The notes below the pieces were generated by a model that was not told the DNA's origin, searched no databases, and saw only the letters and a program-made list of their open reading frames with translations. Made by a program: the position numbers and the translations under genes. This document shows positions 18,534 through 32,745 of a stretch of 63,225 bases of DNA, piece after piece (positions within the stretch are counted from its first letter, which is position 1; each line of letters begins with the position of its first letter). Origin of the DNA: a virus (Duplodnaviria > Caudoviricetes); IMG/VR virus record IMGVR_UViG_3300049167_000226, positions 1 to 63,225 of that record; one strand, given 5' to 3'.

Positions 18534-19342
18534 AGAGTTTTAAGGAAAGACTCGATGCGCAGCGCACCGAAAAGAGGGATCTGAGGAAGCGTGTCCTGCC
18601 GCCGGTCGCGTATTACGGCCGCGAGCCGGCGTTTGAGCAGAAGCGTATCGAGTTCTACTCGGCCATGGCCGCAGCGTTCGGATGGAAGGAGTGGAGACTA
18701 AACCCGGAGATCGTGATGGTCACCTCGGCGGGCGGCCGCGATGGTCGGAAAGCTGAATTGGCGAGCATCGGCCGTGAGCGTGCTGTGCCCATCATCACCA
18801 ACACAGCTCCGCTCGAATACATGTTCAGCAAGGGCATGTTGCACGGCAAGGATGATGCGCCAGGCGCATCGCATCGCCGGCTCAACGCGGGCCAACGCCT
18901 TCGCAGCATCTGGGAAGGCGCACAGATCTCGGGTCTGAAGGCCGCGAACCTCGAAGGTTCAAGCGGGGGCGGGATGCCCGGCAGGTTGCCCGGCGAATAT
19001 AAGATGGACTGTATTCGATGGCTCGCGGAGCTACGAGGCGCAAACGAGACGGTGGGGCTTGTCCAAGCGCCATTCTCGATCATCGAGGATCTTGTCTATC
19101 ATGATAAGTGGGTATGGGAGAAAGTGCGGGTAGACCGGCGAGAGCGCTTTATCCTGAAGATACATCGCGCTCTCGACGAGCTGTCAGTGCGGTTTCACAT
19201 GATGACCATGCGGGACTTCAACGCCCGCTGGTACCCTTTGCAGCGGCGCGCAGAAGAGCAAGAATCGCCTGATCCATCTCCGGCTCAGCCGTCTGATCAG
19301 CCCGCGCCTCGGTCGCCAGACGATGCGCCTCCGAGCGAATAA
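18530..19342 (+). CDS. Hypothetical protein; candidate late-gene regulator (Q-like position)
   Basis: Last gene of the replication operon; function inferred from position only. Confidence 0.5.
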   Translation: MKSFKERLDAQRTEKRDLRKRVLPPVAYYGREPAFEQKRIEFYSAMAAAFGWKEWRLNPEIVMVTSAGGRDGRKAELASIGRERAVPIITNTAPLEYMFSKGMLHGKDDAPGASHRRLNAGQRLRSIWEGAQISGLKAANLEGSSGGGMPGRLPGEYKMDCIRWLAELRGANETVGLVQAPFSIIEDLVYHDKWVWEKVRVDRRERFILKIHRALDELSVRFHMMTMRDFNARWYPLQRRAEEQESPDPSPAQPSDQPAPRSPDDAPPSE

Positions 19343-19691
19343 CCGCCCTGATGGTGCGTATTGCTTCCGTTTCCGGTTCCGCGCCAGCCGTCGCTTGGAC
19401 GATCTCAGTTTTCAGCATGGCATAAAGCGTCCGAATTGCTTCTAGCTCCGAGGCCGTTTCGGTGGTCCAAGCGGGGATGCCGGCGGTAGCCGCGGACATA
19501 GCAAGACGTTCGGTCTGTGTCAGTTCCCGTAGGCCACGGCTGGAGTGGCCGGCGAGAGAAGGCGACATGCCGACCACTTCGCCCGCCGCTGAGACCTGCT
19601 TGGCGTTGTAGCCCATGGACTTCATCCACTGGCGGAAATCATTGCTGTCGTCTGTGTCGGCCACGAATGGCACCTCTACGTTCGCGGTCAT
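19218..19691 (-). CDS. Putative HTH regulator
   Basis: FRQWMKSMGYNAKQVSAAGEVVGMS. Confidence 0.6.
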   Translation of the reverse strand: MTANVEVPFVADTDDSNDFRQWMKSMGYNAKQVSAAGEVVGMSPSLAGHSSRGLRELTQTERLAMSAATAGIPAWTTETASELEAIRTLYAMLKTEIVQATAGAEPETEAIRTIRAVIRSEAHRLATEARADQTAEPEMDQAILALLRAAAKGTSGR

Positions 19692-19728
19692 TCACCCTGT
19701 CCTTATCTTGATCCACGATTCGATTGAA

Positions 19729-19763
19729 GGGTAGGGGCGCATCACGCGCCCCTACCCGCTTTT
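19729..19763. terminator. Likely terminator hairpin
   Basis: 12-bp perfect stem gggtaggggcgc/gcgcccctaccc followed by gctttt, overlapping the ParB-like stop. Confidence 0.6.
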
Positions 19764-21562
19764 GTCTTTCGAGGCTTTGCCGGCTTGGCGGAGGTTGGCG
19801 CCTTGTATGAGGATGTCCGAAGTGGTTCCGGCAGCCAGCCTGTCGCCTTCGCGGCGTCGGCTGCCAACTTTGCCATGTCCGCCTTCTTACCATCCTTCAG
19901 ATCCTGACCGCTCATTTCCTTGTATGCGGCCGCGATGATCGGCTTCTTAGAGTTGGCGAAGAAGCTGTCCGCGTCGAAATGCGTGAGCACGGAAACTCCG
20001 AAGGCATCAAGGGCGGCGCGGCGTAGCGCGCCACGCTTTTCGTCTGGAATGTAGCGGTGCTGAAACCACTCTTCAGTGACGTCGGCTGATCCGGCGACAA
20101 GTTTGGCGATCTCGATCTTGATCGTATCGCTATCCATCTCGGCGTACTGCTTGAAGACGGACGAGAACGTCGGCGGTGCATCGCCGGCATGAGAGCCGTA
20201 TCCAACCCGCTCGATGTGGATGCGGCAAGGCCGTTGAGTTCCGAGTGTCATGTCGTTGCCGAGTACGAGCGCCGTGGCGAGGAAGGCCAGCGCAAGGTCT
20301 GGTTTTTCGATCACCGCCTCCGCCAAGGCGGCCGTCGCAGCCTTGGCTAGCTCAGACATCACCGGCGCGGAGAGCTTAAGCGGATCTGCTTCCGGCTTTC
20401 CGGCTGAGCTGCTCGACGATGAGGTTCGGTTTCTGGGAACCTTCCCATATTCGATGCTGTAGTCGCGATCGGTACGAATGATGACGCCAGACGCTGCACG
20501 CTGAGCAGCGGAATGCCGCCCGTTCGCCAACTTTTCGAGTTCGCCGTATTCGGCATCTAGCCCTCGGAATCGCTCCTGCTCTTCTTCGGGCAGATCGTCG
20601 ATATCAACTTCATCGAACTCTTCGAGCGCTGACTGCAGCTCGTCAAAGCGTTCCTGCGCCTCGGCGGGAAGCCCGTTTTCTTCCGGCTGGAGACGGTCCA
20701 TATACCAGACGTCGTCGCCCAGTTCTTCAGCCGTCTTAACCCACGCCCAGCCGGCGTCGAGCATTTCCTTCGTGATCTCCTCGATGCGCTGTGCTTTAAG
20801 CTTCTCGACGATATCGCCACTAGTCCAGTAACTGTGATCTTCGAAAAGGTCATTGGTGATCTTCCCGCCGGCGATAATGTAGCGTGTCTCGCCGATAAAC
20901 TTCGCAACGGCCCCATTCGATTTCGTGCCGGTGCCGGCGATAGCCTCTTTGATGTAGGTTGAGGACGTCTTTTGCCAGCCGGGCAGGTTATTGTAGACTT
21001 CCATCTGCCGCTCAGGATCAGGCTCCAAGGTATAAGCCTTGGCCGTTTCAAAGCTGATTTCTTCCTTGTCGAGCATTTCCAGAAGAACAGGATGCAGTCT
21101 TCCCAAGGCCATGCGGCCCTGCACGAACCGGAGCGTCTGGCCGAAACGCAGTGCGATATCGTCAGCGGTCGCTCCTTGTTCGGCTAAGCGGGCGAACGCC
21201 TTAAACTCGTCCACCGGTCGCATGGCGCGGCGGAGGATGTTTTCGGCGAGGCTCATTTCCTCGGCCGCGGCGTCTACGGCGATCGTACGGAGAAGGGCCG
21301 GGATCGGGTAGGATGCCGGAAGCTTCCCTTCCGTGATCAGTTCGGATACGGCCTGGTGACGGCGGGCACCGGCGAACACACGATAGCGATCGCCTTCGAG
21401 ATCCGCATCATTCGCTTCCGGCGGCCGGACTGTGATCGCCTGAATGATGCCGTGCTCGAGGATGGACGCCTTCAAGGAGGCGAGCGAATCCTTGTCGCGC
21501 ATCCTGCGCGCGTTGCTGCGATCCAGCACGATTCGGTCGGCGGTGAGAGATAGCTGTTCCAT
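19742..21562 (-). CDS. Large ParB/RepB/Spo0J-family protein
   Basis: LKASILEHGIIQAITVR, VFAGARR, SLAENILR, HTH; start moved to MEQLSL. Confidence 0.9.
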   Translation of the reverse strand: MEQLSLTADRIVLDRSNARRMRDKDSLASLKASILEHGIIQAITVRPPEANDADLEGDRYRVFAGARRHQAVSELITEGKLPASYPIPALLRTIAVDAAAEEMSLAENILRRAMRPVDEFKAFARLAEQGATADDIALRFGQTLRFVQGRMALGRLHPVLLEMLDKEEISFETAKAYTLEPDPERQMEVYNNLPGWQKTSSTYIKEAIAGTGTKSNGAVAKFIGETRYIIAGGKITNDLFEDHSYWTSGDIVEKLKAQRIEEITKEMLDAGWAWVKTAEELGDDVWYMDRLQPEENGLPAEAQERFDELQSALEEFDEVDIDDLPEEEQERFRGLDAEYGELEKLANGRHSAAQRAASGVIIRTDRDYSIEYGKVPRNRTSSSSSSAGKPEADPLKLSAPVMSELAKAATAALAEAVIEKPDLALAFLATALVLGNDMTLGTQRPCRIHIERVGYGSHAGDAPPTFSSVFKQYAEMDSDTIKIEIAKLVAGSADVTEEWFQHRYIPDEKRGALRRAALDAFGVSVLTHFDADSFFANSKKPIIAAAYKEMSGQDLKDGKKADMAKLAADAAKATGWLPEPLRTSSYKAPTSAKPAKPRKTKAGRGA

Positions 21563-21642
21563 TGCGATAGAACCTCTTGAGTTGTGATTTCGGATAGCGG
21601 TGAAAGGAAGGCCGGCGCGCACGGCGCCGGCGAGCTGCTTGG

Positions 21643-22026
21643 TCACGCGGCATTGGCTACCTGCTGGCGGCCGAGCGACTTGACCAAGCCGCGCACGGAA
21701 AGCCGCACGTTCGGGTCGGTTATCGCCTCGAAGTCAGCAGCGAGCGTGATCGCCTCTCGACTCATTGCAGGCAGCACGTCGCCTTTGCCAGTTTCGGTGC
21801 CGTCGATACCGGCAAAGAGCACATCGATGCGGACAGCGAAGACTTCGGCCATCTTCACCAGCCGGCTTGCGCTCACGCGGTTGGTGCCCTTCTCGTATTT
21901 CTGGATTTGCTGGAACGTGATGCCGAGGGCATCGCCGAGTGTCTCCTGGCTCATGTTACGCAAGGCGCGCAGCCGGCGGATGTTGGCGCCGACCTGGATA
22001 TCGGCAGCTTCTGGTGCGTCTTTCAT
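21643..22026 (-). CDS. XRE-family HTH regulator
   Basis: MSQETLGDALGITFQQIQKYEKGTNRVSASRL. Confidence 0.92.
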   Translation of the reverse strand: MKDAPEAADIQVGANIRRLRALRNMSQETLGDALGITFQQIQKYEKGTNRVSASRLVKMAEVFAVRIDVLFAGIDGTETGKGDVLPAMSREAITLAADFEAITDPNVRLSVRGLVKSLGRQQVANAA

Positions 22027-22043
22027 TCTGTTCTCCTGAAATG

Positions 22044-22066
22044 AAAAAGGCCGCGTCGGGCGGCCT
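22044..22066 (-). terminator. Rho-independent terminator
   Basis: ggccgc-ccgac-gcggcc followed by TTTTT on minus strand. Confidence 0.55.
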
Positions 22067-22102
22067 GCAGGTTGATTAATGGAAGCTAGTGGATGGTAGT
22101 GG

Positions 22103-23281
22103 TTATGTGCGGCTGGGCATCAGCACGCCGGTCCACCCGCCGATCGAGCCGGAGACAAGGGCCGGCGAGATGGCATCAGCCATGCGGATCCTCATATTGC
22201 GACCATCGGGGCTGGCCGCTTCGATGGCAGAGCGGAGGCTGCGAGCGGCGAAAGCGATTTCCAAAGGATCTCCCGTGTAATCGCACTCAATCTGGGTGGC
22301 GCCGGTGCCGATATCGCCACTGGCCAGCACCGCTACCGCGGCGGGGGAGAACGTGAGGTGGATGGTCCCTGCGCCGGTGCATTCGACGAGTGATGCAACA
22401 GCCCCGGCGAGCGTGCTCCCGGCTACCGTCGCCACTTTGTCCGGCTCAGCAGGAATGACACGCTGGTAGTCGGGGAACGTACCGTCCAGCAGCTTCACCG
22501 TAACGGCGACATCGCGGAAGACGAAGACGGCGACCGTCGACGAGATTTCAACCTTGACCAGGTCAGCACCAGCATGACCGTCCAGCAGCGACGCCACGAA
22601 CTTCGCACCTTCTGTGGGGAGGATCACGTTCAGTTCCGCCTTGCCAGCCTGAGCGTTGGTATCCTGGATGTACAAACGGTGCCCATCCGTGGCGACGAAA
22701 CGCAGGCGGCCGTTGTGATTGTGGATGTTGATGCCATTCAAGTAGGGGCGGGTCTCGTCCGTCGAGACCGCGTCGACGGTACCGTCGATCGCGTTCCAGA
22801 GCACCGCACTTGCGATCGAGAACCGGTGTACCTTTGCACCATCCTCGTGTCGGATGGGCTGAGGGAAATCGTCGCTCGGCATCGCATCGAGGACAAACCT
22901 GGTACCGGATAGCTGGATCGCGCACTTGTTGGCGACAATCCGCTCCCCTTGGGTCTCGACATCATCAGCCAGCAGCTCGAGTATCGCGGTTCCGCTCGGG
23001 GTTCCCTTCTTCATAAGCTTGAGAAGCGTTGCGGCCGGAAGGGCCGTCGAGAAACGGGCATCGACGTCCGCAGCGATCGCTGTCTCGGCCTGAATGTCGA
23101 TGTTGGTTGCCGTAATGGCGATTCCACCCGGCTCCGATGCCATGCGAATGTGATTGAGGATGGGCAGCGGCTGTCTGCCGCCGCAGAGCTTGGCGAGCAA
23201 TGCCACGCATTCGGTGAGCTCGGCGCGATCGACCAAGGCGGACGGATTCTCGGGGACAAAGAGTTGAACGACGTTCTGCAT
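22103..23281 (-). CDS. dnaN: DNA polymerase III beta sliding clamp
   Basis: PILNHI, ATNIDI, STDETRPYLNGI, VATDGHRL, LLDGTFPDYQRVIP, VLMPSR. Confidence 0.93.
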   Translation of the reverse strand: MQNVVQLFVPENPSALVDRAELTECVALLAKLCGGRQPLPILNHIRMASEPGGIAITATNIDIQAETAIAADVDARFSTALPAATLLKLMKKGTPSGTAILELLADDVETQGERIVANKCAIQLSGTRFVLDAMPSDDFPQPIRHEDGAKVHRFSIASAVLWNAIDGTVDAVSTDETRPYLNGINIHNHNGRLRFVATDGHRLYIQDTNAQAGKAELNVILPTEGAKFVASLLDGHAGADLVKVEISSTVAVFVFRDVAVTVKLLDGTFPDYQRVIPAEPDKVATVAGSTLAGAVASLVECTGAGTIHLTFSPAAVAVLASGDIGTGATQIECDYTGDPLEIAFAARSLRSAIEAASPDGRNMRIRMADAISPALVSGSIGGWTGVLMPSRT

Positions 23282-23306
23282 GCCTGTTTCTCCTGATGTT
23301 AGGCAC

Positions 23307-23328
23307 AAAAAAACCGCCTCTCGGCGGG
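23307..23328 (-). terminator. Rho-independent terminator
   Basis: ccgcc-gaga-ggcgg followed by T7 on minus strand. Confidence 0.65.
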
Positions 23329-23337
23329 GGTGATCGG

Positions 23338-24150
23338 TCACAGACCGAAGTCGAACAGCGATGGCCCAGCAGGTTCCTTGACCTGGGGCCGTCGCTTGGT
23401 CACCGCGCGAGGCGGTGGCTGTGGCGGAATTGGTTGAGTAGGCGGCGGCGGGGCCGCTGCAGCGTCCGCAGCGCGATCCGCGGCCAGGCGACCAGACCAG
23501 AATCCCATGACGTGGGCCGGCGTGTACCAATCCTCTCGGAATTCCAGCCGTAGCGTATCGCCGACGATCACGTGGGCTGGGATATGCATCAGCGAGAACT
23601 GGACATAGGCCATGTGAACGGCCCGAGGGTCGATATCAATCGCAGTCACATGTAGATGCTGCTGATAGTTGATGCCAAGATCCTTGATCGCCTCGGCCAG
23701 GGCGATGACCGTTGCACCGGCGCCGACGGCCGGTTCCTGGGCGGTGACATAACCGTGCTTGCCGAGAGTGGCTTGCAGTTCCTCGGCGCTGCCGATCGTC
23801 ATCTTCGCCATCATCCTGCAGAGCTCATAGGGTGTGAAGAACTGGCCGCGTGCTGTGTTGTGCAGCTCGAGTTCGTGGAAGGTGGCTCCAAGGATATCCT
23901 GTGGTCCGCTTTCCAGCGCCATGACGACTTCGCCGAGGATCTTCGGGAAAGTGCCGACGACGTCACGCTCATAGCGCCCGATGATCTCCATGTAGCGGGA
24001 TTCCCGTTTCTCCCGCTGCCGAATATCCATTGCATTGCTGAGGGAGATGGCGGCGCATTCGCACCAATCGGAGAACACGGTGTAAAGATCGTGCCGGTAT
24101 CGGCAGGACTCGAATAGCTTTACGATGCTCTTCAGGTGACGGGTGCTCAT
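23338..24150 (-). CDS. HsdM/N-6 DNA methylase-like protein lacking the NPPY/F catalytic motif
   Basis: GQFFTP, EPAVGAG, AIDID, GDTL present; no NPP motif before the Pro-rich tail. Confidence 0.85.
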   Translation of the reverse strand: MSTRHLKSIVKLFESCRYRHDLYTVFSDWCECAAISLSNAMDIRQREKRESRYMEIIGRYERDVVGTFPKILGEVVMALESGPQDILGATFHELELHNTARGQFFTPYELCRMMAKMTIGSAEELQATLGKHGYVTAQEPAVGAGATVIALAEAIKDLGINYQQHLHVTAIDIDPRAVHMAYVQFSLMHIPAHVIVGDTLRLEFREDWYTPAHVMGFWSGRLAADRAADAAAAPPPPTQPIPPQPPPRAVTKRRPQVKEPAGPSLFDFGL

Positions 24151-25214
24151 TGGCCCGCACCTTTCCGACGCTTCAGCTCCAGGAGCTCGGCGTAGCGCGC
24201 GTGGATGTCATCCACATGGATGAAACTCGGATCGAGCTGATAGAGATCGATGATGGCCCGGCGTACGGTAACAAGCGTCGTCGCCTCGGCATCCGTCAGC
24301 ATGCGGGTAGGCCAGCCTTTGACGTAGAGCATAGGCTTCGTGAGCATGCCTTCGAATTGCCGACGTAAAAGAGCGCGTTCTTTGCCGAGGCGGAAACGGG
24401 CGGTAAGATCGGCCGGAAGAAGATGGGGGGCGACGTCGCCCAGCCATCTGGCGCCCTGAAAGGCAAAACCACTGTCCGCCTCAAGCCCAACCATACGACG
24501 ATAGATATCGTGCGCTTCTTTCTGGACAGTGGCGGCGATCATGTCGGCTATGCTCTGCATGATGCAGAAGCGACACGAGACTCGGCTCATACCAAAGACG
24601 CGATAAGCGGGGTGAGGATGAAGCCCACTACTATCGATCATCATGAAGACATCGTCGACAGTCAGGTCGATGATCGGGCGCCAGTTCCAGATCCTACCCG
24701 TGCTTTCCAGGTCGGCGATGGGCATGCGTGCTCGGTTGCTGCTCTCTTCACGCCGCACGCCCGTGACGTTGATGATCTGGTGCCCTTTGAACCGGCGCTT
24801 CAACTCGGCCATGATGACGTGCGTCTTTTGCTCTGAGGTGCAGAAGCGCATGTCCGGTGTCGACCAGCAGGGAACAAGCGTGACGGTGCTCAGCATCTCG
24901 TAGCGGGTTTTGCTGGAAAGCCAGCGGCTTTCCCACCGCTCCATGAGGCCGCCACCATTCCGGCTGACCATGACGAGATCGCACTCGAGATGGTCGGCCA
25001 AATCCCGGCAGACCCGGCCACTGTCGTCCCATTCAACGGAACCCAGGTCAGCGTGGACAAGAATGCGGGGTCCGGTGTGGCCGATGGCGTTGAGGTGGCG
25101 GAAGGTCGCGAGAGCTGCCGCTTGACTGTCCTTGCCGCCCGATACGCCGACGGCCACGGGAGCGCCTTCGCGGAGGAGGGCATCCACCGCGTCGTGCGTC
25201 GCAATGTGGGGCAA
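24147..25214 (-). CDS. PAPS reductase-family (PP-loop, probable Fe-S) protein
   Basis: VSGGKDS, RFCTSEQK, GVRREESSNR, SRVSCRFC; TTG start after GGAG. Confidence 0.9.
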   Translation of the reverse strand: MPHIATHDAVDALLREGAPVAVGVSGGKDSQAAALATFRHLNAIGHTGPRILVHADLGSVEWDDSGRVCRDLADHLECDLVMVSRNGGGLMERWESRWLSSKTRYEMLSTVTLVPCWSTPDMRFCTSEQKTHVIMAELKRRFKGHQIINVTGVRREESSNRARMPIADLESTGRIWNWRPIIDLTVDDVFMMIDSSGLHPHPAYRVFGMSRVSCRFCIMQSIADMIAATVQKEAHDIYRRMVGLEADSGFAFQGARWLGDVAPHLLPADLTARFRLGKERALLRRQFEGMLTKPMLYVKGWPTRMLTDAEATTLVTVRRAIIDLYQLDPSFIHVDDIHARYAELLELKRRKGAGQ

Positions 25215-25216
25215 AA

Positions 25217-26044
25217 CTATTCTCCGGCTATGAGGAGGATGAATGAGACCTTGTCGACCTTGCGCAGGTCGACCTGATCGATGTTGTCGAGGATCCACTG
25301 TCGTAGATCTGCAGGCTTGATGTCCCAGGAACTGCCACCCTGCTGCGCGCGACGCTTGTCGTCTCGCTTCGTCGCCGGCAGATCGCCGGAGAAAACCAAG
25401 CGCGTGATGGTCTTGCCATCCACGCCGAGAATGCTTGCTGCTTTCGTGGCGGACAGCTCCTCTCGTGCGTCCCGGCGCGACAGGCTCAGGCGTTTAGCCC
25501 TAACCACGATCGCGGTTGGCGACCGGCTGAAGCCGTGCTCGCGGAACATCTGCGCCGCCTTGTCCGGCATGTGCAGTGGGGCTTTCTGCATCAGCGCGTC
25601 CTCTGCAGGCGTCCACGGCGGCTCTTTCTTGTGGCGAATGCTCAAGCCGAGAGCCAGCACCCGATCCGACAGCCACCAGCGCGGGACGCCAAGACGCTCG
25701 GCCAGCTCCCGGACCTCGCCCCTCTTCCTTCCGCTGAGTTGAGCCCATTCCTCGCGGATTCGCTCGTCCATCTCCGGTGATGCTTCGAACTTGCCCCGGT
25801 GCGGCGATTGAGCCGTGGAGGTGATGCCCATGGTCCGCGCCCGATTGTAGACGCCGGCGGGTGTGCGGTGAGGCGGCAACCGGGTGAGGCAAGCCGCCGC
25901 GCCACCGGTCGGGAAATACTCGCGGATAATAGCCTTCTCTTCCTCCGTCCAGAACCGGGCATCGTGCTTGCCCGGAATGCGCGGCGCCGATATGCGCGGA
26001 TCGTGTCCGCGCTGCTTGCTGAAGGATACGGGCTTCAGGCTCAT
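25217..26044 (-). CDS. Multi-HTH protein (Myb-like repeats + excisionase-like HTH)
   Basis: FWTEEEKAII and PWTPAEDALM repeats; LSATKAASILGV...GDLPA. Confidence 0.7.
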   Translation of the reverse strand: MSLKPVSFSKQRGHDPRISAPRIPGKHDARFWTEEEKAIIREYFPTGGAAACLTRLPPHRTPAGVYNRARTMGITSTAQSPHRGKFEASPEMDERIREEWAQLSGRKRGEVRELAERLGVPRWWLSDRVLALGLSIRHKKEPPWTPAEDALMQKAPLHMPDKAAQMFREHGFSRSPTAIVVRAKRLSLSRRDAREELSATKAASILGVDGKTITRLVFSGDLPATKRDDKRRAQQGGSSWDIKPADLRQWILDNIDQVDLRKVDKVSFILLIAGE

Positions 26045-27339
26045 GCGTTCATTCCCTTTCCAAGTCGGACAGCCCGGCCTTCGCCCAAGTCGCTGATCTC
26101 GATGGCTCCATAGCTGTCGAGCAGTGCGAGGGCGGCAGACACACGGCTGACGTCGATCGAGAGATAGTCGGCTAGGTCGGCGACTGCGGCGCCCTGCGGG
26201 GCGAGCGGCTTCAGGACCTCCCAGATACGGCCGGCATCTGCGAAAGCTGGTTCGCGGATGAACGCCCTGATGGACCGATACGCCGGCGGAATGATGGACT
26301 CCGAGCGGATTTCCTCGTCGCCGGCCGTTGCCGCATGCAACTGGTCGAGATCGAGAAGAGAAGCGGCGCCAGCGGCGTCGATCGCTGTCGGCGCTACGAT
26401 CTCCGGACGAGCGCCGATGTGTTTCGTCGCCACCATTCCGATGTGGAGCGTGGCTGGTGCCTGCGAGAAGGCAGGTCCGGACGCAACGAAATCGCCCGGC
26501 TGCAGCATCGGCAGGCGATCGAACCCCTTGCTTGCATCCCAGCCGATCGTCTCGGCCGCGCGGCGGATGTCGATGTCGAGGGTGTTGAGGCCGATCAGGA
26601 AGTTGAGGATCTCGGCGGAGACGGATTTTGCCAGCTTCGCAATACGCTGCGTGGCAAGGACACCGGCGAGGCCGCGCTTGCGGCCGCGGCTCATCAGGTC
26701 GGTGATCGTCTGCGTTGCTGCCTGCCGGACAGATGTTGCCGCCAGACCGCCGCCGCCGAACGGTGCGAACAGGTGTGCCTCGTCGATGACGATCAGGGCA
26801 GGGTGCCAGTTCTCACGAGGCGCTGAGATGAGGGCACCGACGAAGGCTGTCACCGCCTGCATCTGCGATTCTCGGTCGAGCTGCGACAGATCAAGCAGGA
26901 CGGACAGCCGATGCTCACGGACTCGGCCGGCGGCGACCGCCAAGGCGGCGGCATCGAGCCTGGTGCCATCGAGGATCGGGAAATCGAAGTGTGAGGCAAG
27001 GGAGCCGAACTCGCCCTCAGGGTCGATAATGATCTGTTGGACGAGGCCGTGCGTCTGCTCAAGGATTCGGCGCAGCGTCCAGCTCTTCCCCGCGCCCGAC
27101 GTGCCCTGGACAAGCAAGCGGCCATCGAGCAGCTTTTCAGTGTCAATGTAGATCGACCTTCCGAACTCCGATCGACCGAGATCGATGCCGCCGGCGGGCG
27201 GTTGCTCGATCGGCGTCGGCTTGGCAGAGATTGCGGTCCCCATCTCGGCAGCCAGCGCTTTCGCCAGCCTCTGTTGCACCGGCGGCATGCGCTTGAGCTC
27301 ATCGGTTGATAACATGACTTTCCCGAATGTCATGGCCAT
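26041..27339 (-). CDS. HerA/DUF87-like P-loop ATPase with C-terminal winged helix
   Basis: GTSGAGKS, IIDPEGEF, IVIDEAH, RGRKRG, ATQR. Confidence 0.9.
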   Translation of the reverse strand: MAMTFGKVMLSTDELKRMPPVQQRLAKALAAEMGTAISAKPTPIEQPPAGGIDLGRSEFGRSIYIDTEKLLDGRLLVQGTSGAGKSWTLRRILEQTHGLVQQIIIDPEGEFGSLASHFDFPILDGTRLDAAALAVAAGRVREHRLSVLLDLSQLDRESQMQAVTAFVGALISAPRENWHPALIVIDEAHLFAPFGGGGLAATSVRQAATQTITDLMSRGRKRGLAGVLATQRIAKLAKSVSAEILNFLIGLNTLDIDIRRAAETIGWDASKGFDRLPMLQPGDFVASGPAFSQAPATLHIGMVATKHIGARPEIVAPTAIDAAGAASLLDLDQLHAATAGDEEIRSESIIPPAYRSIRAFIREPAFADAGRIWEVLKPLAPQGAAVADLADYLSIDVSRVSAALALLDSYGAIEISDLGEGRAVRLGKGMNA

Positions 27340-27626
27340 CTCTCCATTGTTGAAATTGCTTGCTTGGTGCGGTCGACTGCAGTGTCCACCGGCTTGATGT
27401 AGTCGGGAACTCCCGAGAACTTACGGTTCGCAAGCTCTTCGTCGAGCAGTTTGAGGTTAATGCGAAGGGTCGCGAGAACCTCGTCGCGGATCTGGACGAA
27501 GGCGGCGACGGTCACCGCATCCTCCTCATTCGAGAATTTCGCCACCGGGTGCTTGTGGTCGGGTTTGCCGTTGCGCTCGCCAACCAGACTTCGGCCGAAC
27601 CGAAGCCAGGGGAAGGGCGTCTTCAT
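27330..27626 (-). CDS. Hypothetical protein
   Basis: AAGGAG RBS; overlaps ATPase start. Confidence 0.6.
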   Translation of the reverse strand: MKTPFPWLRFGRSLVGERNGKPDHKHPVAKFSNEEDAVTVAAFVQIRDEVLATLRINLKLLDEELANRKFSGVPDYIKPVDTAVDRTKQAISTMERWP

Positions 27627-27733
27627 GTTTGCTCCTTAAATGAGTTGGTTGCAGTCGCCGGCTTGCCTAACGTTGTGCGAATCTCAGTTTCCGATAAATT
27701 GCCTCAGCACAGGGGCCAGCTTAGTCAGGACGA

Positions 27734-28951
27734 TTGATGGAAAAATTGAGAGTGGGAACGGTTGGTCTGTTTGACGTGGGCCCATTCACGGACCTGACGA
27801 TTGAATTTCCTAAGGACGCTGGTCTCAGCCTAATCTGCGGTGATAACGGAATAGGAAAAACCTCCATTCTTGAGGCCATTGCTGCTGTTTTCTCTCGAGG
27901 TCAGCTGACGAGGTTGAAGCGCCGTCAAGGCGCGGTCTCTGGCCGGGTAAACTTAGAATACGAGCTTCACGACAGGCTGGAGACAGCCGAGATCACGCTA
28001 AAGGCTTTTGAGCCAGATCAGTCGGATCACATGAACGTCCAAATTCCTGAAGCCGCCGCAAGGGTTATCAATGTCAGAGCAGCACGTGATTTCGTTTATC
28101 AACGTCAAGATGCTATCTCCCGTGACCCTACACTTATGGAGAGGCAGGTGGGTGACAGGGTCATGACTGGCCTAGTTGCTACAGAGATCAAATCCTGGTT
28201 CTCGAACCGATTTCTACTAAGTCCGCATTCAGAGACGAGCGGTTGGACTGACGAGATGCTGCAAAATCTCGACGCGGCGGTTTCTTACTTCTCAATACTT
28301 GATCCGAGTGTGAAGCTTGATCGGGTTGACGTTAGGACATTTGACATAATTGTCTCAACTCCGAGTGGTCCGATCCCGTTCGAGTACCTGTCGTCAGGAT
28401 TTCGCTCTGCGTACATTTTGCTTTTGGGGATCATTAAAGAGATTGAATTCCGTGGATTAGGCGTAGCCGCAACGGATTTCGCAGGCGTGATCTTAATCGA
28501 TGAGATTGATCTTCACCTGCACCCTGTCTGGCAGCGAGAGATCGGAACTGCTTTGAAGAAGGCGTTCCCAAGCGCGCAGATAATAGCGACGACCCATAGT
28601 CCCCATGTCATTCAGGCTGCTCAAGCGTCGGAGGTAGTTGCACTTATACGTGAGCCTGGCGGCGGCGTACGACCACGGCCGGTGCCGTCGAGTAAGTACG
28701 GGTACGCCGGCTGGACACTTGAGGAGGTTCTTGAGGACATTATGGGGGTAGAAGATACTAAAACTCCAGTCTTCAGGCAGGCCATGCAAAATTTTGACGA
28801 CGCAATCGACCGAGAGGACGCGGACGTCGTGATCGCGTCAATTGAAGTTCTTCGAGAAATGCTACACCCTAATAGTTCTACCCGGAAACTGTTAGAAATT
28901 CAGGCTGCGCCGTATCTTGGAGCGGTTTCCTCCAATGGGGACGACCGGTGA
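27734..28951 (+). CDS. ptuA: Septu-type ABC/AAA ATPase (PtuA-like)
   Basis: GDNGIGKT, LSSG, ILIDEIDLHLHP.WQR, TTHSPHVI; AT-richer codon usage. Confidence 0.85.
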   Translation: MMEKLRVGTVGLFDVGPFTDLTIEFPKDAGLSLICGDNGIGKTSILEAIAAVFSRGQLTRLKRRQGAVSGRVNLEYELHDRLETAEITLKAFEPDQSDHMNVQIPEAAARVINVRAARDFVYQRQDAISRDPTLMERQVGDRVMTGLVATEIKSWFSNRFLLSPHSETSGWTDEMLQNLDAAVSYFSILDPSVKLDRVDVRTFDIIVSTPSGPIPFEYLSSGFRSAYILLLGIIKEIEFRGLGVAATDFAGVILIDEIDLHLHPVWQREIGTALKKAFPSAQIIATTHSPHVIQAAQASEVVALIREPGGGVRPRPVPSSKYGYAGWTLEEVLEDIMGVEDTKTPVFRQAMQNFDDAIDREDADVVIASIEVLREMLHPNSSTRKLLEIQAAPYLGAVSSNGDDR

Positions 28952-29691
28952 TACGTCTTTTCCGAGGCAACGCTCCACAGGAACTTGATCAGCAGACGAT
29001 CGACGAACTAACAGCAGAATTCTCAGCGACTGCCAAATCAGTCTGGGCGAAACCATTCATAAAAGAGGCGCTTTTAGCCTCATCTCATTCAAAGTGTGCC
29101 TATTGCGAGACGAGGATCGACGAAGAATCAAAGTACATGGAGGTTGAGCATTTCAGATGCAAAGACGACTTCCCCTCACTCGTGGTCCAGTGGGACAACC
29201 TTTTGCCCGCTTGCAAGCATTGCAACGGGCAGAAAAGCACCCATAACGTCGATACACAGGGCATGCTTGTAGATCCGTTCGCTGATGAACCGCGCGCCCA
29301 CATCTTCTTTCAAAATTATCGGCTCCGGTGGCGTGACGAAAAAGGGCGCCGCACCATTGATACCCTCTACCTCAACGACACTACGCGTCTGGTGAGCGTA
29401 AGGTTGCGTATTGGAGAAGCTATCGCGGAAGCTCTTGAGACGTTGCTGACCTTACTGGAGGGTTACCTCGCTGGGGAAAATTCAACTCTCCGACGTAACC
29501 GCATTACGCGTGGGGTGAGAAAGCTCCTAGAGGAGGCACAGCCAGCTTCAGAGTACAGCGCGCTGGCCGCGACTGTGCTTTTAAGTGATCCGAATTATGA
29601 ATGGATTCGGCATAAGCTTATTGATCTCGATCTTTGGGGTGAATTGGAGGCGCTAGAGACGTCTGCGGCTGCGTTAACGCTTCATCCGTAG
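28948..29691 (+). CDS. ptuB: Septu-type HNH endonuclease (PtuB-like)
   Basis: KCAYCE, VEHF, WDNLLPACKHCN; GTGA-coupled to the ATPase. Confidence 0.85.
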   Translation: MIRLFRGNAPQELDQQTIDELTAEFSATAKSVWAKPFIKEALLASSHSKCAYCETRIDEESKYMEVEHFRCKDDFPSLVVQWDNLLPACKHCNGQKSTHNVDTQGMLVDPFADEPRAHIFFQNYRLRWRDEKGRRTIDTLYLNDTTRLVSVRLRIGEAIAEALETLLTLLEGYLAGENSTLRRNRITRGVRKLLEEAQPASEYSALAATVLLSDPNYEWIRHKLIDLDLWGELEALETSAAALTLHP

Positions 29692-29747
29692 TGTTAACCT
29701 CGGAACGCCTCGTTGGAGAGGCTAGGTGGTTTCGCGTCCCCCTGTTC

Positions 29748-30074
29748 TCACTGTATAACCTCTTCGTACCCGGTTTCGGAAACCCAAAGCCCGTCGTTGG
29801 TGCGGACGGTGATCAGGGTGTAGGTCGCGGGTGGCGGATCGTGAGGCGTGGCGTGAACGTCGCTGATGAAGCTGCCTAGGCCGCGACGAGCGGCGGCGAG
29901 GGCGACTTTCCGGCCGTCTATCCCGTCCATTTCGCCGGAGTACATGGCGAAATGCAGGGCGGCAGTGACCAGCCGGGACACGATGGTTTCAGCATCGTGG
30001 TTCATCAGCTCGTTGTGCTCGGCAAACTGGCGGACGATATCGGCCACGCCGCCGGCGCGTTGGGTGTTGGGCAT
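29748..30074 (-). CDS. Hypothetical protein
   Basis: AAAGGA RBS. Confidence 0.6.
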   Translation of the reverse strand: MPNTQRAGGVADIVRQFAEHNELMNHDAETIVSRLVTAALHFAMYSGEMDGIDGRKVALAAARRGLGSFISDVHATPHDPPPATYTLITVRTNDGLWVSETGYEEVIQ

Positions 30075-30088
30075 GTGGGATTGTCCTT

Positions 30089-30184
30089 TCAGCGGGCGAA
30101 TGCGTCGGCGATTGAGGGCGCCCAGACGCAGAGGAAGAGAATGAAGTACGACATGGCGGCCAGCGCCCAGAGATCCTTGAGCAT
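30089..30184 (-). CDS. 31-aa hydrophobic peptide (not in ORF track)
   Basis: MLKDLWALAAMSYFILFLCVWAPSIADAFAR; GAGG upstream; fills the operon gap. Confidence 0.5.
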   Translation of the reverse strand: MLKDLWALAAMSYFILFLCVWAPSIADAFAR

Positions 30185-30186
30185 AG

Positions 30187-30594
30187 TCAAAGCCTCTCGG
30201 GGTCGGTGGATTGGGCGATGAAATCGGTCAGGTCATTGGTAACGTCCTGAACAGCCGTCAGGTAGGCGCGACGCTTTCCGGTGTCGTCGAGGTCGAAATT
30301 CCGGTTCGCCTCGAGCAGCTCGTCGCGAGCCTTCGCCATCGGAGCGAGGATCGCGTTCATCACCGCAAAGGCGTCATCCTTCTCGGAGAAATCGCCGATC
30401 GCCATAGCGAGGAACTGGCCTCCATCGTCGAGGTAACGGCCGTAAATCGTCCACGTGGTAGAGAAAACGGCGTCGTTGGATGCAAGACGGACACGTTCCT
30501 TTTCGAATTCCGCGTCGCTGGTGAATGACCAGTATTCGCCCTCGTCGTCGATGATGCAGTGCTGGATTTCCAAATATTCAAAGGCCATGGGCAT
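30187..30594 (-). CDS. Acidic hypothetical protein
   Basis: AAAGGA RBS before MPMAFEY; D/E-rich. Confidence 0.6.
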   Translation of the reverse strand: MPMAFEYLEIQHCIIDDEGEYWSFTSDAEFEKERVRLASNDAVFSTTWTIYGRYLDDGGQFLAMAIGDFSEKDDAFAVMNAILAPMAKARDELLEANRNFDLDDTGKRRAYLTAVQDVTNDLTDFIAQSTDPERL

Positions 30595-30695
30595 GGCGGG
30601 TCCTTTCGAGGAAATGTCGCCGGAAGGCCGCACGCTTAGGGGGCGGGAGCGTGCGGCCGCGCAAGCGACATCGAGGGCTAGCGACTTGCTTGCGC

Positions 30696-30950
30696 TCACC
30701 GACTGGGGCAGGGGGAACCCGGGTCGGCGATCTCTAATTCGTCTGTCAATGCGAGATAAGAGCGCGCCAACTGATAGCGGCAGTCCTCATTGCACAGCCA
30801 AGCGCGATACATGGCGGCGCGCAGGTCATTGGCCGTCCACTTTTCGTATTGCGCCTTCTCCGCCGCTGCATAGGCAGGATCAAGGCTCGCTGTGAGGGCA
30901 TGGAAAGCGGCGAGATCGTCAGGGGTAAGTATTTCCGTCCACCTAGACAT
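30696..30950 (-). CDS. Hypothetical protein
   Basis: MSRWTEILT start overlapping upstream stop. Confidence 0.5.
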   Translation of the reverse strand: MSRWTEILTPDDLAAFHALTASLDPAYAAAEKAQYEKWTANDLRAAMYRAWLCNEDCRYQLARSYLALTDELEIADPGSPCPSR

Positions 30951-31110
30951 TGCTGGCCTCGATAACGCGGGAGCATGCGAGGCGAACGCGCAGCGCATCA
31001 GCCTTGGCGAGGTAGGCCGCCAGTTCTTCGGCTGCCTGTTCCTGATGGCGCTGACGTGCCGTCTCCCAATCGGAGGGCATGCGCATGCGAGTGGAATGCT
31101 GGCTGGGCAT
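30943..31110 (-). CDS. Small hypothetical protein
   Basis: GGAG RBS before MPSQH. Confidence 0.5.
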   Translation of the reverse strand: MPSQHSTRMRMPSDWETARQRHQEQAAEELAAYLAKADALRVRLACSRVIEASNV

Positions 31111-31132
31111 GGTGAAATCTCCATGGGTGGAA

Positions 31133-31165
31133 ATGCAAAAGCCCGGCGCGATGGCCGGGCTTGCA
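31133..31165 (-). terminator. Rho-independent terminator
   Basis: gcccggc stem followed by TTTTGCATTT on minus strand. Confidence 0.6.
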
Positions 31166-31187
31166 TGTCGTCGAGTGGAGGGGTGAA

Positions 31188-32404: not shown

Positions 32405-32450
32405 GAGAATATCGATTTCATTTCGTTATGCAATGCGATTTTCTCGCATA
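32405..32450 (-). promoter_or_regulatory. Putative leftward promoter with adjacent operator-like palindrome
   Basis: Minus strand TTGCAT-N16-TATTCT; ATGCGA-N5-TCGCAT at 32433-32449. Confidence 0.45.
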
Positions 32451-32733: not shown

Positions 32734-32745
32734 CAGGTCCGACCT

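What the first reader, a model, noticed from the sequence alone, without database searches (positions are those of the whole stretch)
22103..27339. Candidate uncharacterised DNA-modification or anti-defence module: HerA ATPase, Myb/HTH protein, PAPS reductase-like protein, motif-IV-less N6-MTase, beta clamp
Seen: four tightly coupled genes (4-bp overlaps or a 2-bp gap) encoding a HerA/DUF87 ATPase, a multi-HTH protein, a PP-loop Cys-cluster PAPS-reductase-family enzyme and an HsdM-like protein, followed after a terminator by dnaN. Known: PAPS-reductase-family enzymes (DndC, SspD) and ATPases are core parts of phosphorothioate systems, and HerA ATPases occur in several defence systems. Inference: a phage-encoded module that modifies phage DNA or disarms host RM/Dnd/BREX systems. 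No cysteine desulfurase or nuclease is present, so it matches no canonical system I recognise.
Basis: partly seen in the sequence, partly recalled or inferred. Interest (0 to 1): 0.75.

Follow-up and report, generated by a model that had tools for sequence, protein, structure and literature searches.

The report
Mosaic phage accessory genes, not one module
The four tightly packed genes are real, but they are three separately travelling accessory cassettes of the kind that phages and plasmids carry to establish themselves in a new cell, and one of them is a cut-down methylase look-alike that seems to hook onto the DNA sliding clamp.

Summary
In detail: on the minus strand of a complete Rhizobiales-type provirus lie orf98, a HerA/FtsK-type ATPase, a multi-HTH protein, a PAPS-reductase-like PP-loop enzyme and a motif-IV-less HsdM-like protein, coupled by 4-bp overlaps or a 2-bp gap, then a terminator and a phage beta clamp.

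The interpretation as one module fails its own test. Of 159 other loci with the PAPS-like gene, 1 has the ATPase and HTH gene, not adjacent to it. The closest relative keeps ATPase-HTH-MTase-like-clamp without the PAPS-like gene, and another keeps only MTase-like-clamp.

Three units emerge. (i) ATPase plus HTH is a fixed pair, 15 of 24 loci. (ii) The PAPS-like enzyme is solitary and often lies next to ParB-like proteins and DNA methylases. (iii) The MTase-like protein belongs to a large family of short proteins found in 2135 plasmid records, including a conjugative leading region. In 58 of 150 representatives it ends in a QLxLF-type clamp-binding motif.

Functions are inferred: separate establishment or anti-defence roles. 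Other first readers in this scan noted the MTase-like protein and a ParB-methylase-PAPS cluster on other DNA.

The parts
27330..27626 (-). orf98, small first gene whose stop overlaps the HerA-like start; no family
   Evidence: no Pfam, PHROG or NCBIfam hit. Relatives were found only in the two closest proviruses (L087/L176 and L178).
26041..27339 (-). HerA/FtsK-type P-loop ATPase, 432 aa: Walker A GTSGAGKS, Walker B IDEAH, weak C-terminal winged-helix-like hit; first half of a fixed gene pair
   Evidence: DUF87 E 9.8e-9. PADLOC mad8 E 6e-15 over the whole model, and HerA models in part. 531 homologues of about 430 aa. Invariant motifs in alignment A6.
25217..26044 (-). 275-aa multi-HTH DNA-binding protein (HTH_17 at residues 197-252, weaker HTH signals upstream); obligate downstream partner of the ATPase
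   Evidence: A relative lies directly downstream of the ATPase in 15 of 24 loci.
24147..25214 (-). Solitary PAPS-reductase-like PP-loop enzyme, 355 aa, with SGGKD and invariant Cys125, Cys214, Cys217 (candidate Fe-S ligands) plus a helical C-terminal half
   Evidence: AlphaFold2 model mean pLDDT 93. Foldseek best hits are PAPS/APS reductases and TtuA.
23338..24150 (-). Short HsdM-like SAM-binding protein, 270 aa: helical N-domain, motifs X, I, II, III, four strands only, no NPPY/F, Pro-rich linker
   Evidence: (phrog_5696 E 7e-73).
23341..23364 (-). C-terminal PSLFDFGL, this clade's version of the family's clamp-binding-like end (QLxLF in most relatives)
   Evidence: Complex prediction with the phage clamp gave weak support, 0.55 against a best control of 0.00.
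23314..23327 (-). Terminator-like hairpin plus T-run between the MTase-like gene and the clamp gene
22103..23281 (-). Phage-encoded beta sliding clamp (DnaN), 392 aa from ATG 23281
   Evidence: Three DNA_pol3_beta domains. TIGR00663 169 bits against cut-off 137.65..
21643..22026 (-). XRE-type HTH protein, 127 aa
   Evidence: HTH_3 E 7e-15.
19742..21646 (-). Large ParB-like protein (ParB_N + HTH_ParB + long C-terminal part), full-length relative of the ParB-like protein of plasmid leading regions
   Evidence: It aligns over residues 53-606 with the ParB gene between ssb and psiB of an IncF plasmid, and over 42-613 with a Rhizobium plasmid protein next to an MTase-like gene.

Best explanation
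The stretch is not one system. It is a mosaic of three independently exchangeable accessory cassettes set in one early, leftward operon of a temperate Rhizobiales phage. All three are drawn from the gene pool that conjugative plasmids keep in their leading regions and phages keep in anti-defence or establishment regions.

(1) A HerA/FtsK-type ATPase with intact Walker motifs always travels with a multi-HTH protein. I infer an ATP-driven DNA motor targeted by a sequence-binding adaptor; its role is unknown.

(2) A stand-alone PP-loop enzyme with three invariant cysteines is distantly like DndC, SspD and BrxP. I infer that it adenylates and probably thiolates a nucleic-acid substrate, using a host sulfur donor. 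In that way it would either mark the element's DNA or interfere with phosphorothioate-based or other restriction. It does not need the neighbouring genes.

(3) The third cassette is a short HsdM-like protein. It keeps the SAM-binding half of an N6-adenine methylase, lacks the catalytic half, and carries a clamp-binding-type motif at the end of a flexible tail. I infer a SAM-binding, non-methylating factor tethered to the sliding clamp at replicating DNA, here placed directly before the phage's own clamp gene.

Shown: the gene anatomy, the family memberships, the conserved motifs and the lack of co-occurrence. Inferred: every biochemical activity and the anti-defence or establishment role.
For: Co-occurrence of the PAPS-like gene. 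Relatives were collected in 79 genome loci and 80 viral loci. HerA+HTH relatives occur in 1 of 79 (L030, about 1.9 kb away from it) and 0 of 80. The MTase-like gene occurs in 9 of 79, lying about 0.6 to 5.5 kb away, and in 1 of 80, adjacent.

A natural deletion series among relatives. L087/L176 has orf98-HerA-HTH-(small antisense ORF)-MTase-like-clamp-XRE-ParB and no PAPS-like gene. L178 has orf98-MTase-like-clamp only. L177 has PAPS then MTase-like, again with a 4-bp overlap, in a different arrangement.

The HerA/HTH pair. An HTH275 relative lies directly downstream of HerA in 15 of 24 loci. These 15 include every locus in which the HerA match runs on to the C-terminal part of the protein. 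The PAPS-like and MTase-like genes each occur in 1 of the 24. The other flanking genes are heterogeneous.

Partners of the PAPS-like gene. A ParB_N protein is present in 33 of 79 genome loci, and within 3.3 kb in 27 of them. In 8 of 52 cases the upstream neighbour is an MT-A70 protein, shown to be a ParB_N fusion in L007. Of 143 flanking ORFs in the viral loci, 22 hit DNA methylase families: MT-A70 10, C5 8, DUF4942 2, N6_N4 2.

Fold and motifs. The PAPS-like model has pLDDT 93, and its best PDB matches are PAPS/APS reductases and TtuA. SGGKD, C125, C214 and C217 are invariant in 36 sequences. The MTase-like model has pLDDT 85, a helical domain plus four strands, and weak HsdM/PacII-M matches.

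The MTase-like family. It has 3723 clusters at E <= 1e-3, and 145 of the best 150 representatives are at most 350 aa. Of those 150, 58 have Q[LIVMAF]x[LIMF][FLW] in the last 15 residues, against about 3% expected from the rate elsewhere in the same proteins. The complex prediction scored 0.55 against a best control of 0.00, which the tool rates as weak support. In its calibration the mark was reached by 58 of 80 solved complexes and 2 of 110 mismatched pairs. The runs agreed in at least 54% of contacts, and the partner's pLDDT was at least 41. Clamp-peptide complexes are solved, so the pass may reflect likeness.

Plasmid parallels. The MTase-like gene is in 2135 plasmid records, 1483 of them conjugative. 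In an IncF plasmid it lies between psiA and traM. PAPS-family genes are in 1418 plasmid records. ParB-like relatives are in at least 5000. Both the PAPS-like gene (51% identity) and the MTase-like gene (48%) lie on one Pseudomonas plasmid, alongside Lar, a C5 methylase and ArdR.
Against: Tight translational coupling in one operon usually signals joint function, and here it links all four genes. The PAPS to MTase-like coupling, with the same 4-bp overlap, recurs in a second provirus at 67-69% identity, so those two may cooperate in this lineage.

The tblastn and BLASTP screens (E 1e-3 to 1e-8) can miss fast-evolving small partners. My gene calling in the loci was crude (longest ORFs). Loci were capped at 80 per scan, and some are the same contig fetched twice or near-identical to each other (L210-L213).

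No activity was measured for any protein. The window's own tail reads PSLFDFGL, not QLxLF, and the complex prediction gave only weak support. Several family members lack the motif: the Klebsiella IncF plasmid copy, the Dulem virus copy, and the Vibrio and Flavobacterium phage copies.
Confidence: 0.7

Rival explanations
1. One reading: one integrated, Dnd-like DNA-modification system. The HerA ATPase would stand in for DndD, the HTH protein for DndE, the PAPS-like enzyme for DndC and the ParB-like protein for DndB. The MTase-like protein would be an extra subunit, and the host would supply the desulfurase.
For: The cast of domains is superficially parallel, and all four genes are translationally coupled. 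No desulfurase is encoded in the provirus, so a host donor would be needed in any case.
Against: The four genes do not co-occur: 1 of 79 and 0 of 80 PAPS loci carry HerA/HTH, and 1 of 24 HerA loci carries a PAPS-like gene. The nearest relative lacks the PAPS-like gene. PADLOC DndC models match only 45-73 residues at E 1e-4 to 7e-4, and no DndD or DndE model matched.
Confidence: 0.05
2. The PAPS-like enzyme and the MTase-like protein form a two-gene functional unit in this lineage. The SAM-binding half-methylase would serve the Fe-S PP-loop enzyme, or target it to clamps on replicating DNA. The result would be a DNA modification or an anti-Dnd-type activity, as in the Vibrio phage PAPS-domain/Dam fusion.
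For: The same 4-bp overlap joins PAPS to MTase-like in a second, rearranged provirus (L177). Both genes lie within 9 kb of each other in 9 of 79 genome loci, and both are on one Pseudomonas plasmid. Relatives of the PAPS-like gene often adjoin methylases. A PAPS-Dam fusion was linked to anti-Dnd activity (passages, bioRxiv 10.1101/2021.05.05.442762). DndC has been reported to bind SAM (introduction of PMC10853773).
Against: Each gene usually occurs without the other. The MTase-like gene is absent from 70 of 79 and 79 of 80 PAPS loci, and the PAPS-like gene is in 1 of 28 MTase-like viral loci. Close relatives keep the MTase-like gene and clamp without PAPS (L176, L178). I did not test any interaction between the two proteins.
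Confidence: 0.2
3. The genes serve replication, segregation or host reprogramming rather than defence evasion. The clamp-bound MTase-like protein would be a replisome accessory or regulator, HerA+HTH a DNA translocase or partition device, and the ParB-like protein a HerB-type host reprogrammer.
For: The genes sit among a clamp, a primase-helicase and a ParB-like gene. The clamp-binding-type tail points the same way. The F-plasmid ParB-like leading-region protein HerB reprograms host transcription rather than blocking defence (abstract and sections of PMC13370423).
Against: The cassettes are optional among close relatives, which is unlike core replication genes. The company kept by the PAPS-like and MTase-like genes is methylases, ArdC, Lar and ArdR.
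Confidence: 0.15
4. The PAPS-like gene is an auxiliary metabolic gene: a true PAPS/APS reductase boosting host sulfate assimilation.
For: Database names, the Pfam PAPS_reduct hit and the closest solved folds point this way.
Against: NCBIfam cysH and PAPS/APS reductase models score 23-31 bits against cut-offs of 154-254. Only about 80 residues match the Pfam model. The protein has an extra 130-residue helical half. By my reading it lacks a C-terminal ECG(L/I)H-type catalytic cysteine motif (motif recalled, not from a call). Its genomic company is DNA enzymes.
Confidence: 0.03

Closest known systems
DndC / SspD / BrxP (PP-loop, Fe-S enzymes of DNA phosphorothioation: Dnd, Ssp, BREX type 4)
   Same: PAPS-reductase-type PP-loop fold and SGGxDS loop. 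Three invariant cysteines, as reported for the 4Fe-4S site of DndC (introduction of PMC10853773). A ParB-like gene is often nearby, as DndB is to DndC. PADLOC hits to BrxP (8.5e-9), SspD (1e-6) and DndC (1e-4).
   Different: The hits cover only 45-130 residues. There is no desulfurase, DndD/SspC-type ATPase, DndE, PglZ or restriction partner. The gene is solitary in most loci. DndD is above cut-off in only 2 of 50 host genomes that carry a relative. There is no adjacent cysteine pair of the kind described as unique to DndC (read).
Vibrio phage PAPS-domain/Dam-methylase fusion with anti-Dnd effect (Piel et al., bioRxiv 10.1101/2021.05.05.442762; passages seen)
   Same: A phage-borne PAPS-reductase-type domain physically joined to an adenine-methylase-type module, in a variable region.
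   Different: Here there are two separate genes, and the methylase-like partner lacks the catalytic half. tblastn of the window's enzyme against 50,697 phage records returned 46 records. The phage named in the paper (44E38.1) is not among the 40 listed, and 6 records were not shown. Homology to that protein was not tested directly.
[quoted passage not shown]
   Same: The pairing of a PAPS-reductase-like protein with a ParB_N protein recurs in 33 of 79 loci.
   Different: The relationship to IbrA itself was not tested. What IbrA/IbrB are is recalled, plus one table legend (PMC4490671). In the window the ParB-like gene lies 2.5 kb away, behind three other genes.
HsdM-type gamma-class N6-adenine methyltransferases and orphan methylases of plasmid leading regions
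   Same: Motifs X (GQFFTP), I (EPAVGAG), II (DID) and III (GDTL), and an HsdM-like helical N-domain. It lies in the leading region of an IncF plasmid. Orphan methylases are a prominent leading-region class (passages of PMC11541004).
   Different: The chain stops where motif IV should be (TPAH instead of NPPY/F). Motifs V-VIII and a target-recognition domain are absent, and there are only four strands. Many members add a clamp-binding-type C-terminus.
HerA/FtsK ATPases of defence systems (Sir2-HerA, DUF4297-HerA, MADS mad8) and of mobile elements
   Same: P-loop core with Walker A/B and DUF87. The PADLOC mad8 model is matched end to end.
   Different: NCBIfam anti-phage HerA models score 22-26 bits against cut-offs of 800-850. 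There is no effector gene, only about 55 residues precede the P-loop, and the partner is an HTH protein. Of the MADS genes, the 10 proteins scanned gave only weak mad1 and mad2 hits besides mad8.
HerB (YfjB), ParB-like leading-region protein of F-type plasmids (PMC13370423)
   Same: The window's 634-aa ParB-like protein has ParB_N and HTH_ParB domains. It aligns nearly end to end with the ParB gene between ssb and psiB of an IncF plasmid.
   Different: Identity is about 25%. It was not compared with F-plasmid HerB itself. The paper found homologues mainly on plasmids and only three in cyanophages (section 10).

Membership tests
Dnd phosphorothioation system (DndABCDE) | DndC orthologue | tested here: not met
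   PADLOC DndC models matched at E 1.2e-4 and 7.3e-4 over 45-73 residues only.
Dnd phosphorothioation system (DndABCDE) | Cysteine desulfurase, DndD ATPase and DndE in the locus | tested here: not met
   No PF00266 match in the whole provirus. No DndD or DndE model hit among the 10 proteins scanned. DndD is above cut-off in 2 of 50 host genomes that carry a PAPS-like relative.
Ssp system / BREX type 4 | SspD or BrxP orthologue with its partner genes (SspABC; PglZ, BrxC, BrxL) | tested here: not met
   SspD E 1e-6 and BrxP E 8.5e-9, both partial matches. No partner models hit among the 10 proteins scanned. The rest of the window was not scanned with PADLOC.
Assimilatory PAPS/APS reductase (CysH) | Score above the curated family cut-off | tested here: not met
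   23-31 bits against cut-offs of 154-254. The fold of the PP-loop domain is shared.
PP-loop ATP pyrophosphatase superfamily | SGGxDS loop and Rossmann-like alpha/beta fold | tested here: met
   SGGKD is invariant in 36 sequences. The model has pLDDT 93, with PAPS reductase, TtuA and GMP synthetase matches at Foldseek probability 1.00.
Gamma-class N6-adenine DNA methyltransferase (N6_Mtase) | SAM-binding motifs X, I, II, III | tested here: met
   GQFFTP, EPAxGxG, D(I/V)D and G(D/N)(S/T)L are conserved in 21 sequences. Pfam N6_Mtase positions 23-118 matched.
Gamma-class N6-adenine DNA methyltransferase (N6_Mtase) | Catalytic motif IV (D/N/S)PP(Y/F/W), motifs V-VIII and a target-recognition domain | tested here: not met
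   The chain reads W-x-T-x-A-H and then a disordered linker. The model has four strands only. The short length is the family norm: 145 of the best 150 representatives are at most 350 aa.
Beta-clamp-binding proteins | QL[SD]LF-type motif on an accessible terminus (consensus recalled) | tested here: inconclusive
   At family level, 58 of 150 have the motif in the last 15 residues against about 3% expected, and 15 of 28 viral copies do. The window's copy ends PSLFDFGL. The complex prediction gave weak support, 0.55 against a best control of 0.00. Binding was not measured.
MADS defence system | Full mad1-mad8 gene set | tested here: not met
   Only mad8 (6e-15), a partial mad2 (4.6e-7) and a weak mad1 (1.3e-3) hit among the 10 proteins scanned.
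Anti-phage HerA systems (Sir2-HerA, DUF4297-HerA) | HerA above the family cut-off plus an effector gene | tested here: not met
   22-26 bits against cut-offs of 800-850. The neighbour is an HTH protein.
DnaN beta sliding clamp | Three clamp domains and a score above cut-off | tested here: met
   All three DNA_pol3_beta domains. TIGR00663 169.4 bits against 137.65.
HerB/YfjB-type ParB-like leading-region proteins | ParB_N, HTH and the two C-terminal domains, each covered at 80% or more (criterion from PMC13370423 section 10) | tested here: inconclusive
   ParB_N and HTH_ParB are present. The protein aligns over residues 53-606 of 634 with an IncF leading-region ParB at 25% identity. It was not compared with HerB itself.

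The most novel reading that the evidence does not exclude
The short HsdM-like protein defines an unrecognised class of mobile-element factors: SAM-binding half-methylases tethered to the beta sliding clamp. Plasmids would express them from their leading regions, and phages early, so that they act at the first replication forks. They might blind SAM-dependent surveillance (type I R-M, BREX-like systems) to newly made DNA. Or, where the gene is coupled to the PAPS-like Fe-S enzyme as here, they might bring SAM and clamp targeting to a new replication-coupled DNA modification.
Probability: 0.2. Interest if true: 0.8.

Novelty: new variant of a known kind. Interest (0 to 1): 0.45.

Why it matters
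The result removes a tempting but false 'new four-gene system'. It replaces it with three separable, testable units that phages and conjugative plasmids share.

The MTase-like family is very common: 2135 plasmid records, many from clinical Enterobacterales, and 3723 clusters at 50% identity. It is annotated everywhere as 'N-6 DNA methylase', yet it cannot be a complete methylase. Its clamp-binding-type tail gives a concrete handle for experiments on how incoming DNA is established.

The solitary PAPS-like enzyme is a frequent phage and plasmid gene, often labelled a sulfur-metabolism gene. Its steady company of methylases and ParB-like proteins points to a role on DNA.

Tried and rejected
**Single conserved module.** Rejected by co-occurrence.

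**Known defence systems.** Membership in Dnd, Ssp, BREX-4, MADS or HerA defence systems was tested with PADLOC and NCBIfam and not met.

**Dependence on host Dnd.** DndD is above cut-off in only 2 of 50 host genomes. This makes general dependence on host Dnd partners unlikely. Ssp and BREX-4 partners in hosts were not tested.

**A universal neighbour of the PAPS-like gene.** All-against-all clustering of ORFs in 79 loci found none. The clusters seen in 15 to 68 loci were ORFs overlapping the PAPS-like gene itself, and every other cluster was in at most 14.

**A consistent neighbour of the HerA/HTH pair.** None was found among 108 flanking ORFs of 12 loci.

**Other searches that gave nothing.**
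- The ESM Atlas search of the ATPase gave only DUF87 clusters and no structure.
- Rfam found no RNA family in 19000-33000.
- No informative repeats flank the Septu cassette.
- No tRNA gene is in the window.
- The sigma-70 promoter scan was at chance level: 3 found, 3.8 expected.

**Literature.** Searches for a clamp-binding, truncated leading-region methylase found no description of it (and passages). This covers only the held open-access library. The first IbrA/IbrB search returned unrelated retina papers.

**Supplements I could not see.** Supplementary tables are closed. Supplementary Table 1 of PMC11541004 may already list the MTase-like family among leading-region families. Supplementary Figure S10 of the anti-CRISPR-associated paper may show related PAPS genes.

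**Model coordinates.** Whether C125, C214 and C217 cluster in space was therefore not checked.

Full report
**What is there.** The window is a whole provirus record of 63,225 bases, estimated 97% complete. GC content is about 0.60, and tailed-phage-sized structural ORFs lie at 35-58 kb. I did not scan the structural ORFs against families.

On the minus strand, between 27.6 and 19.7 kb, lie the following genes in order:
- orf98;
- a 432-aa DUF87/HerA-type ATPase;
- a 275-aa HTH protein;
- a PAPS-reductase-like protein;
- a 270-aa N6_Mtase-like protein;
- a terminator-like hairpin;
- a three-domain beta clamp;
- a second hairpin;
- an XRE-type HTH protein;
- a 634-aa ParB-like protein.

Reading the junctions corrects two starts. 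The PAPS-like gene starts at TTG 25214, 2 bp after the HTH stop and behind GGAGAA, giving 355 aa. The clamp starts at ATG 23281. A Septu pair (PtuA E 2e-124, PtuB E 1e-84) lies on the other strand at 27734-29691 in a low-GC patch.

**Is it one module?** I collected relatives of the PAPS-like protein in 79 loci from one-genome-per-species contigs. They come from Alpha-, Beta- and Gammaproteobacteria, Acidobacteria and others. I collected a further 80 loci from viral contigs, the best 80 of 211 confirmed. I then searched all loci with the window's 17 neighbouring proteins by tblastn.

| Gene found beside the PAPS-like gene | Genome loci (of 79) | Viral loci (of 80) |
|---|---|---|
| HerA and HTH relatives together | 1 (L030, about 1.9 kb away from it) | 0 |
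| MTase-like | 9 (about 0.6 to 5.5 kb away) | 1 (adjacent) |
| Clamp | 10 | 11 |

Three close relatives form a natural deletion series:
- The closest provirus (L087 = L176 = L204; ATPase 86%, MTase-like 84%, clamp 74% identity) has orf98-ATPase-HTH-MTase-like-clamp-XRE-ParB in the same order. About 330 bp holding a small antisense ORF stands where the PAPS-like gene is in the window, and there is no Septu cassette.
- L178 has orf98, then small ORFs, then MTase-like and clamp, with no ATPase, HTH or PAPS-like gene.
- L177 (= L109) has PAPS then MTase-like with the same 4-bp overlap, but in another arrangement.

So the ATPase-HTH unit and the PAPS-like gene are each optional inserts beside a constant MTase-like/clamp core. 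For the four-gene set, that result is what I found.

**Unit 1: ATPase plus HTH.** The ATPase family has 531 homologues of about 430 aa, mostly Rhizobiales. Walker A (GTSGAGKS), Walker B (IDEAH) and further motifs are invariant.

I examined 24 loci: 18 from a profile scan, 5 from the first scan and L030. Four of them are near-identical to each other, and several are contigs already seen. An HTH275 relative lies immediately downstream of the ATPase in 15. The 9 without it are loci where only the ATPase core aligned, at 40-50% identity. The other neighbours of the pair are ordinary early-region genes with no constant member.

The protein scores far below the curated cut-offs of anti-phage HerA models, and no effector gene is present. 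The end-to-end match to the PADLOC mad8 model (E 6e-15) shows a related ATPase core, not a MADS system. I infer a DNA motor guided by a DNA-binding partner. What it does for the phage is unknown.

**Unit 2: the PAPS-like enzyme.** At least 1216 homologues exist at near length. SGGKD and Cys125, Cys214 and Cys217 are invariant across 36 sequences down to 36% identity. The AlphaFold2 model is confident (pLDDT 93). It matches PAPS/APS reductases over about 210 residues and TtuA-type sulfurtransferases more loosely. The rest is a helical half with no match.

It is not a CysH: it scores 23-31 bits against cut-offs of 154-254. It is not an orthologue of DndC, SspD or BrxP, because those hits are partial.

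Its company is informative:
- A ParB_N protein lies in 33 of 79 genome loci, and within 3.3 kb in 27.
- In one Rhizobium/Agrobacterium arrangement a ParB_N/MT-A70 fusion overlaps its start.
- In another arrangement a DUF6884-like gene and a 715-aa ParB-like gene follow it.
- Among 143 flanking ORFs in the viral loci, 22 hit DNA methylase families. That DUF4942 is a methylase domain is recalled.
- ArdC-type genes also occur.

PAPS-family genes are in 1418 plasmid records, 1021 of them conjugative, and in 46 cultured-phage records.

Passages in the literature support a DNA-level, anti-defence reading for such phage genes. A Vibrio phage PAPS-domain/Dam fusion, together with an adjacent phage-specific gene of unknown function, conferred infection of a Dnd-carrying host (bioRxiv 10.1101/2021.05.05.442762). 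A 2026 study lists PAPS reductases in Aca-regulated operons as candidate anti-defence genes (bioRxiv 10.64898/2026.07.27.740549).

Only 2 of 50 host genomes with a relative have DndD above cut-off, so the enzyme cannot generally rely on host Dnd partners. My best guess is a self-sufficient adenylating, sulfur-transferring enzyme acting on nucleic acid with a host sulfur donor. This is inference.

**Unit 3: the MTase-like protein.** Its best family match is phrog_5696 (E 7e-73, unknown function). It has 904 near-length homologues. In the 50%-identity library it has 3723 clusters at E <= 1e-3 and 626 at <= 1e-30. Of the best 150 representatives, 145 are at most 350 aa, so the short form is the norm and not decay.

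The alignment keeps motifs X, I, II and III and several histidines. It then reads W-x-T-x-A-H where NPPY/F should stand, and continues into a variable Pro-rich linker. The model (pLDDT 85) shows a helical domain, four strands and a disordered tail. The best PDB matches are PacII M and HsdM subunits, at E about 1e-3.

The new point is the C-terminus. Most relatives end in GQLRLF, QLSLF, QLDLF, QMSLF, QADIF and the like. These match the beta-clamp-binding consensus QL[SD]LF (consensus recalled).
- 58 of 150 representatives have Q[LIVMAF]x[LIMF][FLW] in the last 15 residues, against about 3% expected from the rate in the rest of the same proteins.
- 15 of 28 viral copies have it. Four more share the window-type GLPLFDF ending, and one reads QSDIF.
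- The motif is also present in a Rhizobium plasmid copy, a Pseudomonas plasmid copy (QLALL) and Faecalibacterium phage Taranis (QLTFF).
- It is absent from the Klebsiella IncF plasmid copy, the Dulem virus copy and the Vibrio and Flavobacterium phage copies.

A complex prediction of the window's tail (residues 226-270) with the phage clamp scored 0.55 against 0.00 for the best of three controls. The tool rates this as weak support. In its calibration the mark was reached by 58 of 80 solved complexes and 2 of 110 mismatched pairs. The runs agreed in at least 54% of contacts, and the partner's pLDDT was at least 41. Because clamp-peptide complexes are solved, the pass may reflect likeness only.

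In the window, and in L176 and L178, the gene sits directly before the phage clamp gene.

**Link to plasmid leading regions.** The MTase-like gene occurs in 2135 plasmid records, 1483 of them conjugative. In a Klebsiella IncF plasmid it lies between psiA and traM, downstream of ssb and a 669-aa ParB-like gene. On a Pseudomonas plasmid it lies in a block with a PAPS-family gene (51% identical to the window's), Lar, a C5 methylase and ArdR. On a Rhizobium plasmid it follows a 650-aa protein that aligns with the window's ParB-like protein over residues 42-613.

The window's ParB-like protein also aligns over residues 53-606 with the IncF leading-region ParB, and it has relatives in at least 5000 plasmid records. 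A 2026 preprint shows that the F-plasmid protein at that position, HerB/YfjB, is a CTP-binding ParB-like protein that reprograms the recipient (PMC13370423: abstract, passages and section 10). Orphan methylases are a leading class of leading-region genes (PMC11541004, passages).

The phage's leftward accessory operon therefore looks like the counterpart of a plasmid leading region.

**Verdict.** The finding is real as anatomy and wrong as a single system. It is a mosaic of three accessory units with unknown biochemistry. The most interesting is the clamp-motif-bearing half-methylase. I found no description of that feature in the held literature. Supplements were closed and may bear on this.

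Earlier first-reader notes of this scan had flagged related items:
- the MTase-like protein, on this window and on three others;
- a possible clamp motif;
- a ParB-MT-A70/PAPS cluster elsewhere.

My tests agree with those notes and extend them.

Noticed in passing
window 27734-29691 (+): A Septu cassette (PtuA E 2e-124, PtuB E 1e-84 in PADLOC) lies in a low-GC patch (0.53 against about 0.61), antisense between orf98 and the upstream minus-strand genes. It is absent from the closest relative provirus L087, which keeps the flanking genes.
   Followed up: partly
window 19742-21646 (-): The 634-aa ParB-like protein is a near full-length relative (25-27% identity) of the ParB-like protein of plasmid leading regions, the position of HerB/YfjB in F-type plasmids. 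The HerB preprint reports phage homologues only in three cyanophages, so prophage copies in Rhizobiales may widen that family's range.
   Followed up: partly
L087 10133-10440 (minus strand): Where the window has the PAPS-like gene, the closest relative has a roughly 100-codon antisense ORF of unknown family. The slot between the HTH gene and the MTase-like gene therefore behaves as a variable cargo site.
   Followed up: partly
L007 7463-8980, with the same arrangement in L008, L009, L016, L018, L020, L022 and L023: In Rhizobium and Agrobacterium genomes, a roughly 505-aa ParB_N/MT-A70 fusion protein overlaps the start of the PAPS-like gene. An HTH_36 protein and a NusG-like protein follow.
   Followed up: partly
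L026, L028, L034, L036, L038-L040, L069: In Shinella and Rhizobium loci, the PAPS-like gene lies just downstream of an ImuB-like and DnaE2-like (error-prone polymerase) gene pair. A DUF6884-like gene and a 715-aa ParB-like gene follow it.
   Followed up: no
window 15988-18210 (+): A 740-aa protein has a strong AAA_25 ATPase domain (E 5e-41) and a weak Toprim-like signal. It is probably the phage's primase-helicase, transcribed divergently from the accessory operon.
   Followed up: no
L002 (Faecalibacterium phage Taranis) 5248-8767: In this Firmicutes phage the MTase-like gene, ending QLTFF, lies between an FtsK-DNA-binding-domain protein and a ParB-like protein. This echoes the ATPase, MTase-like and ParB company seen in the window.
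   Followed up: no
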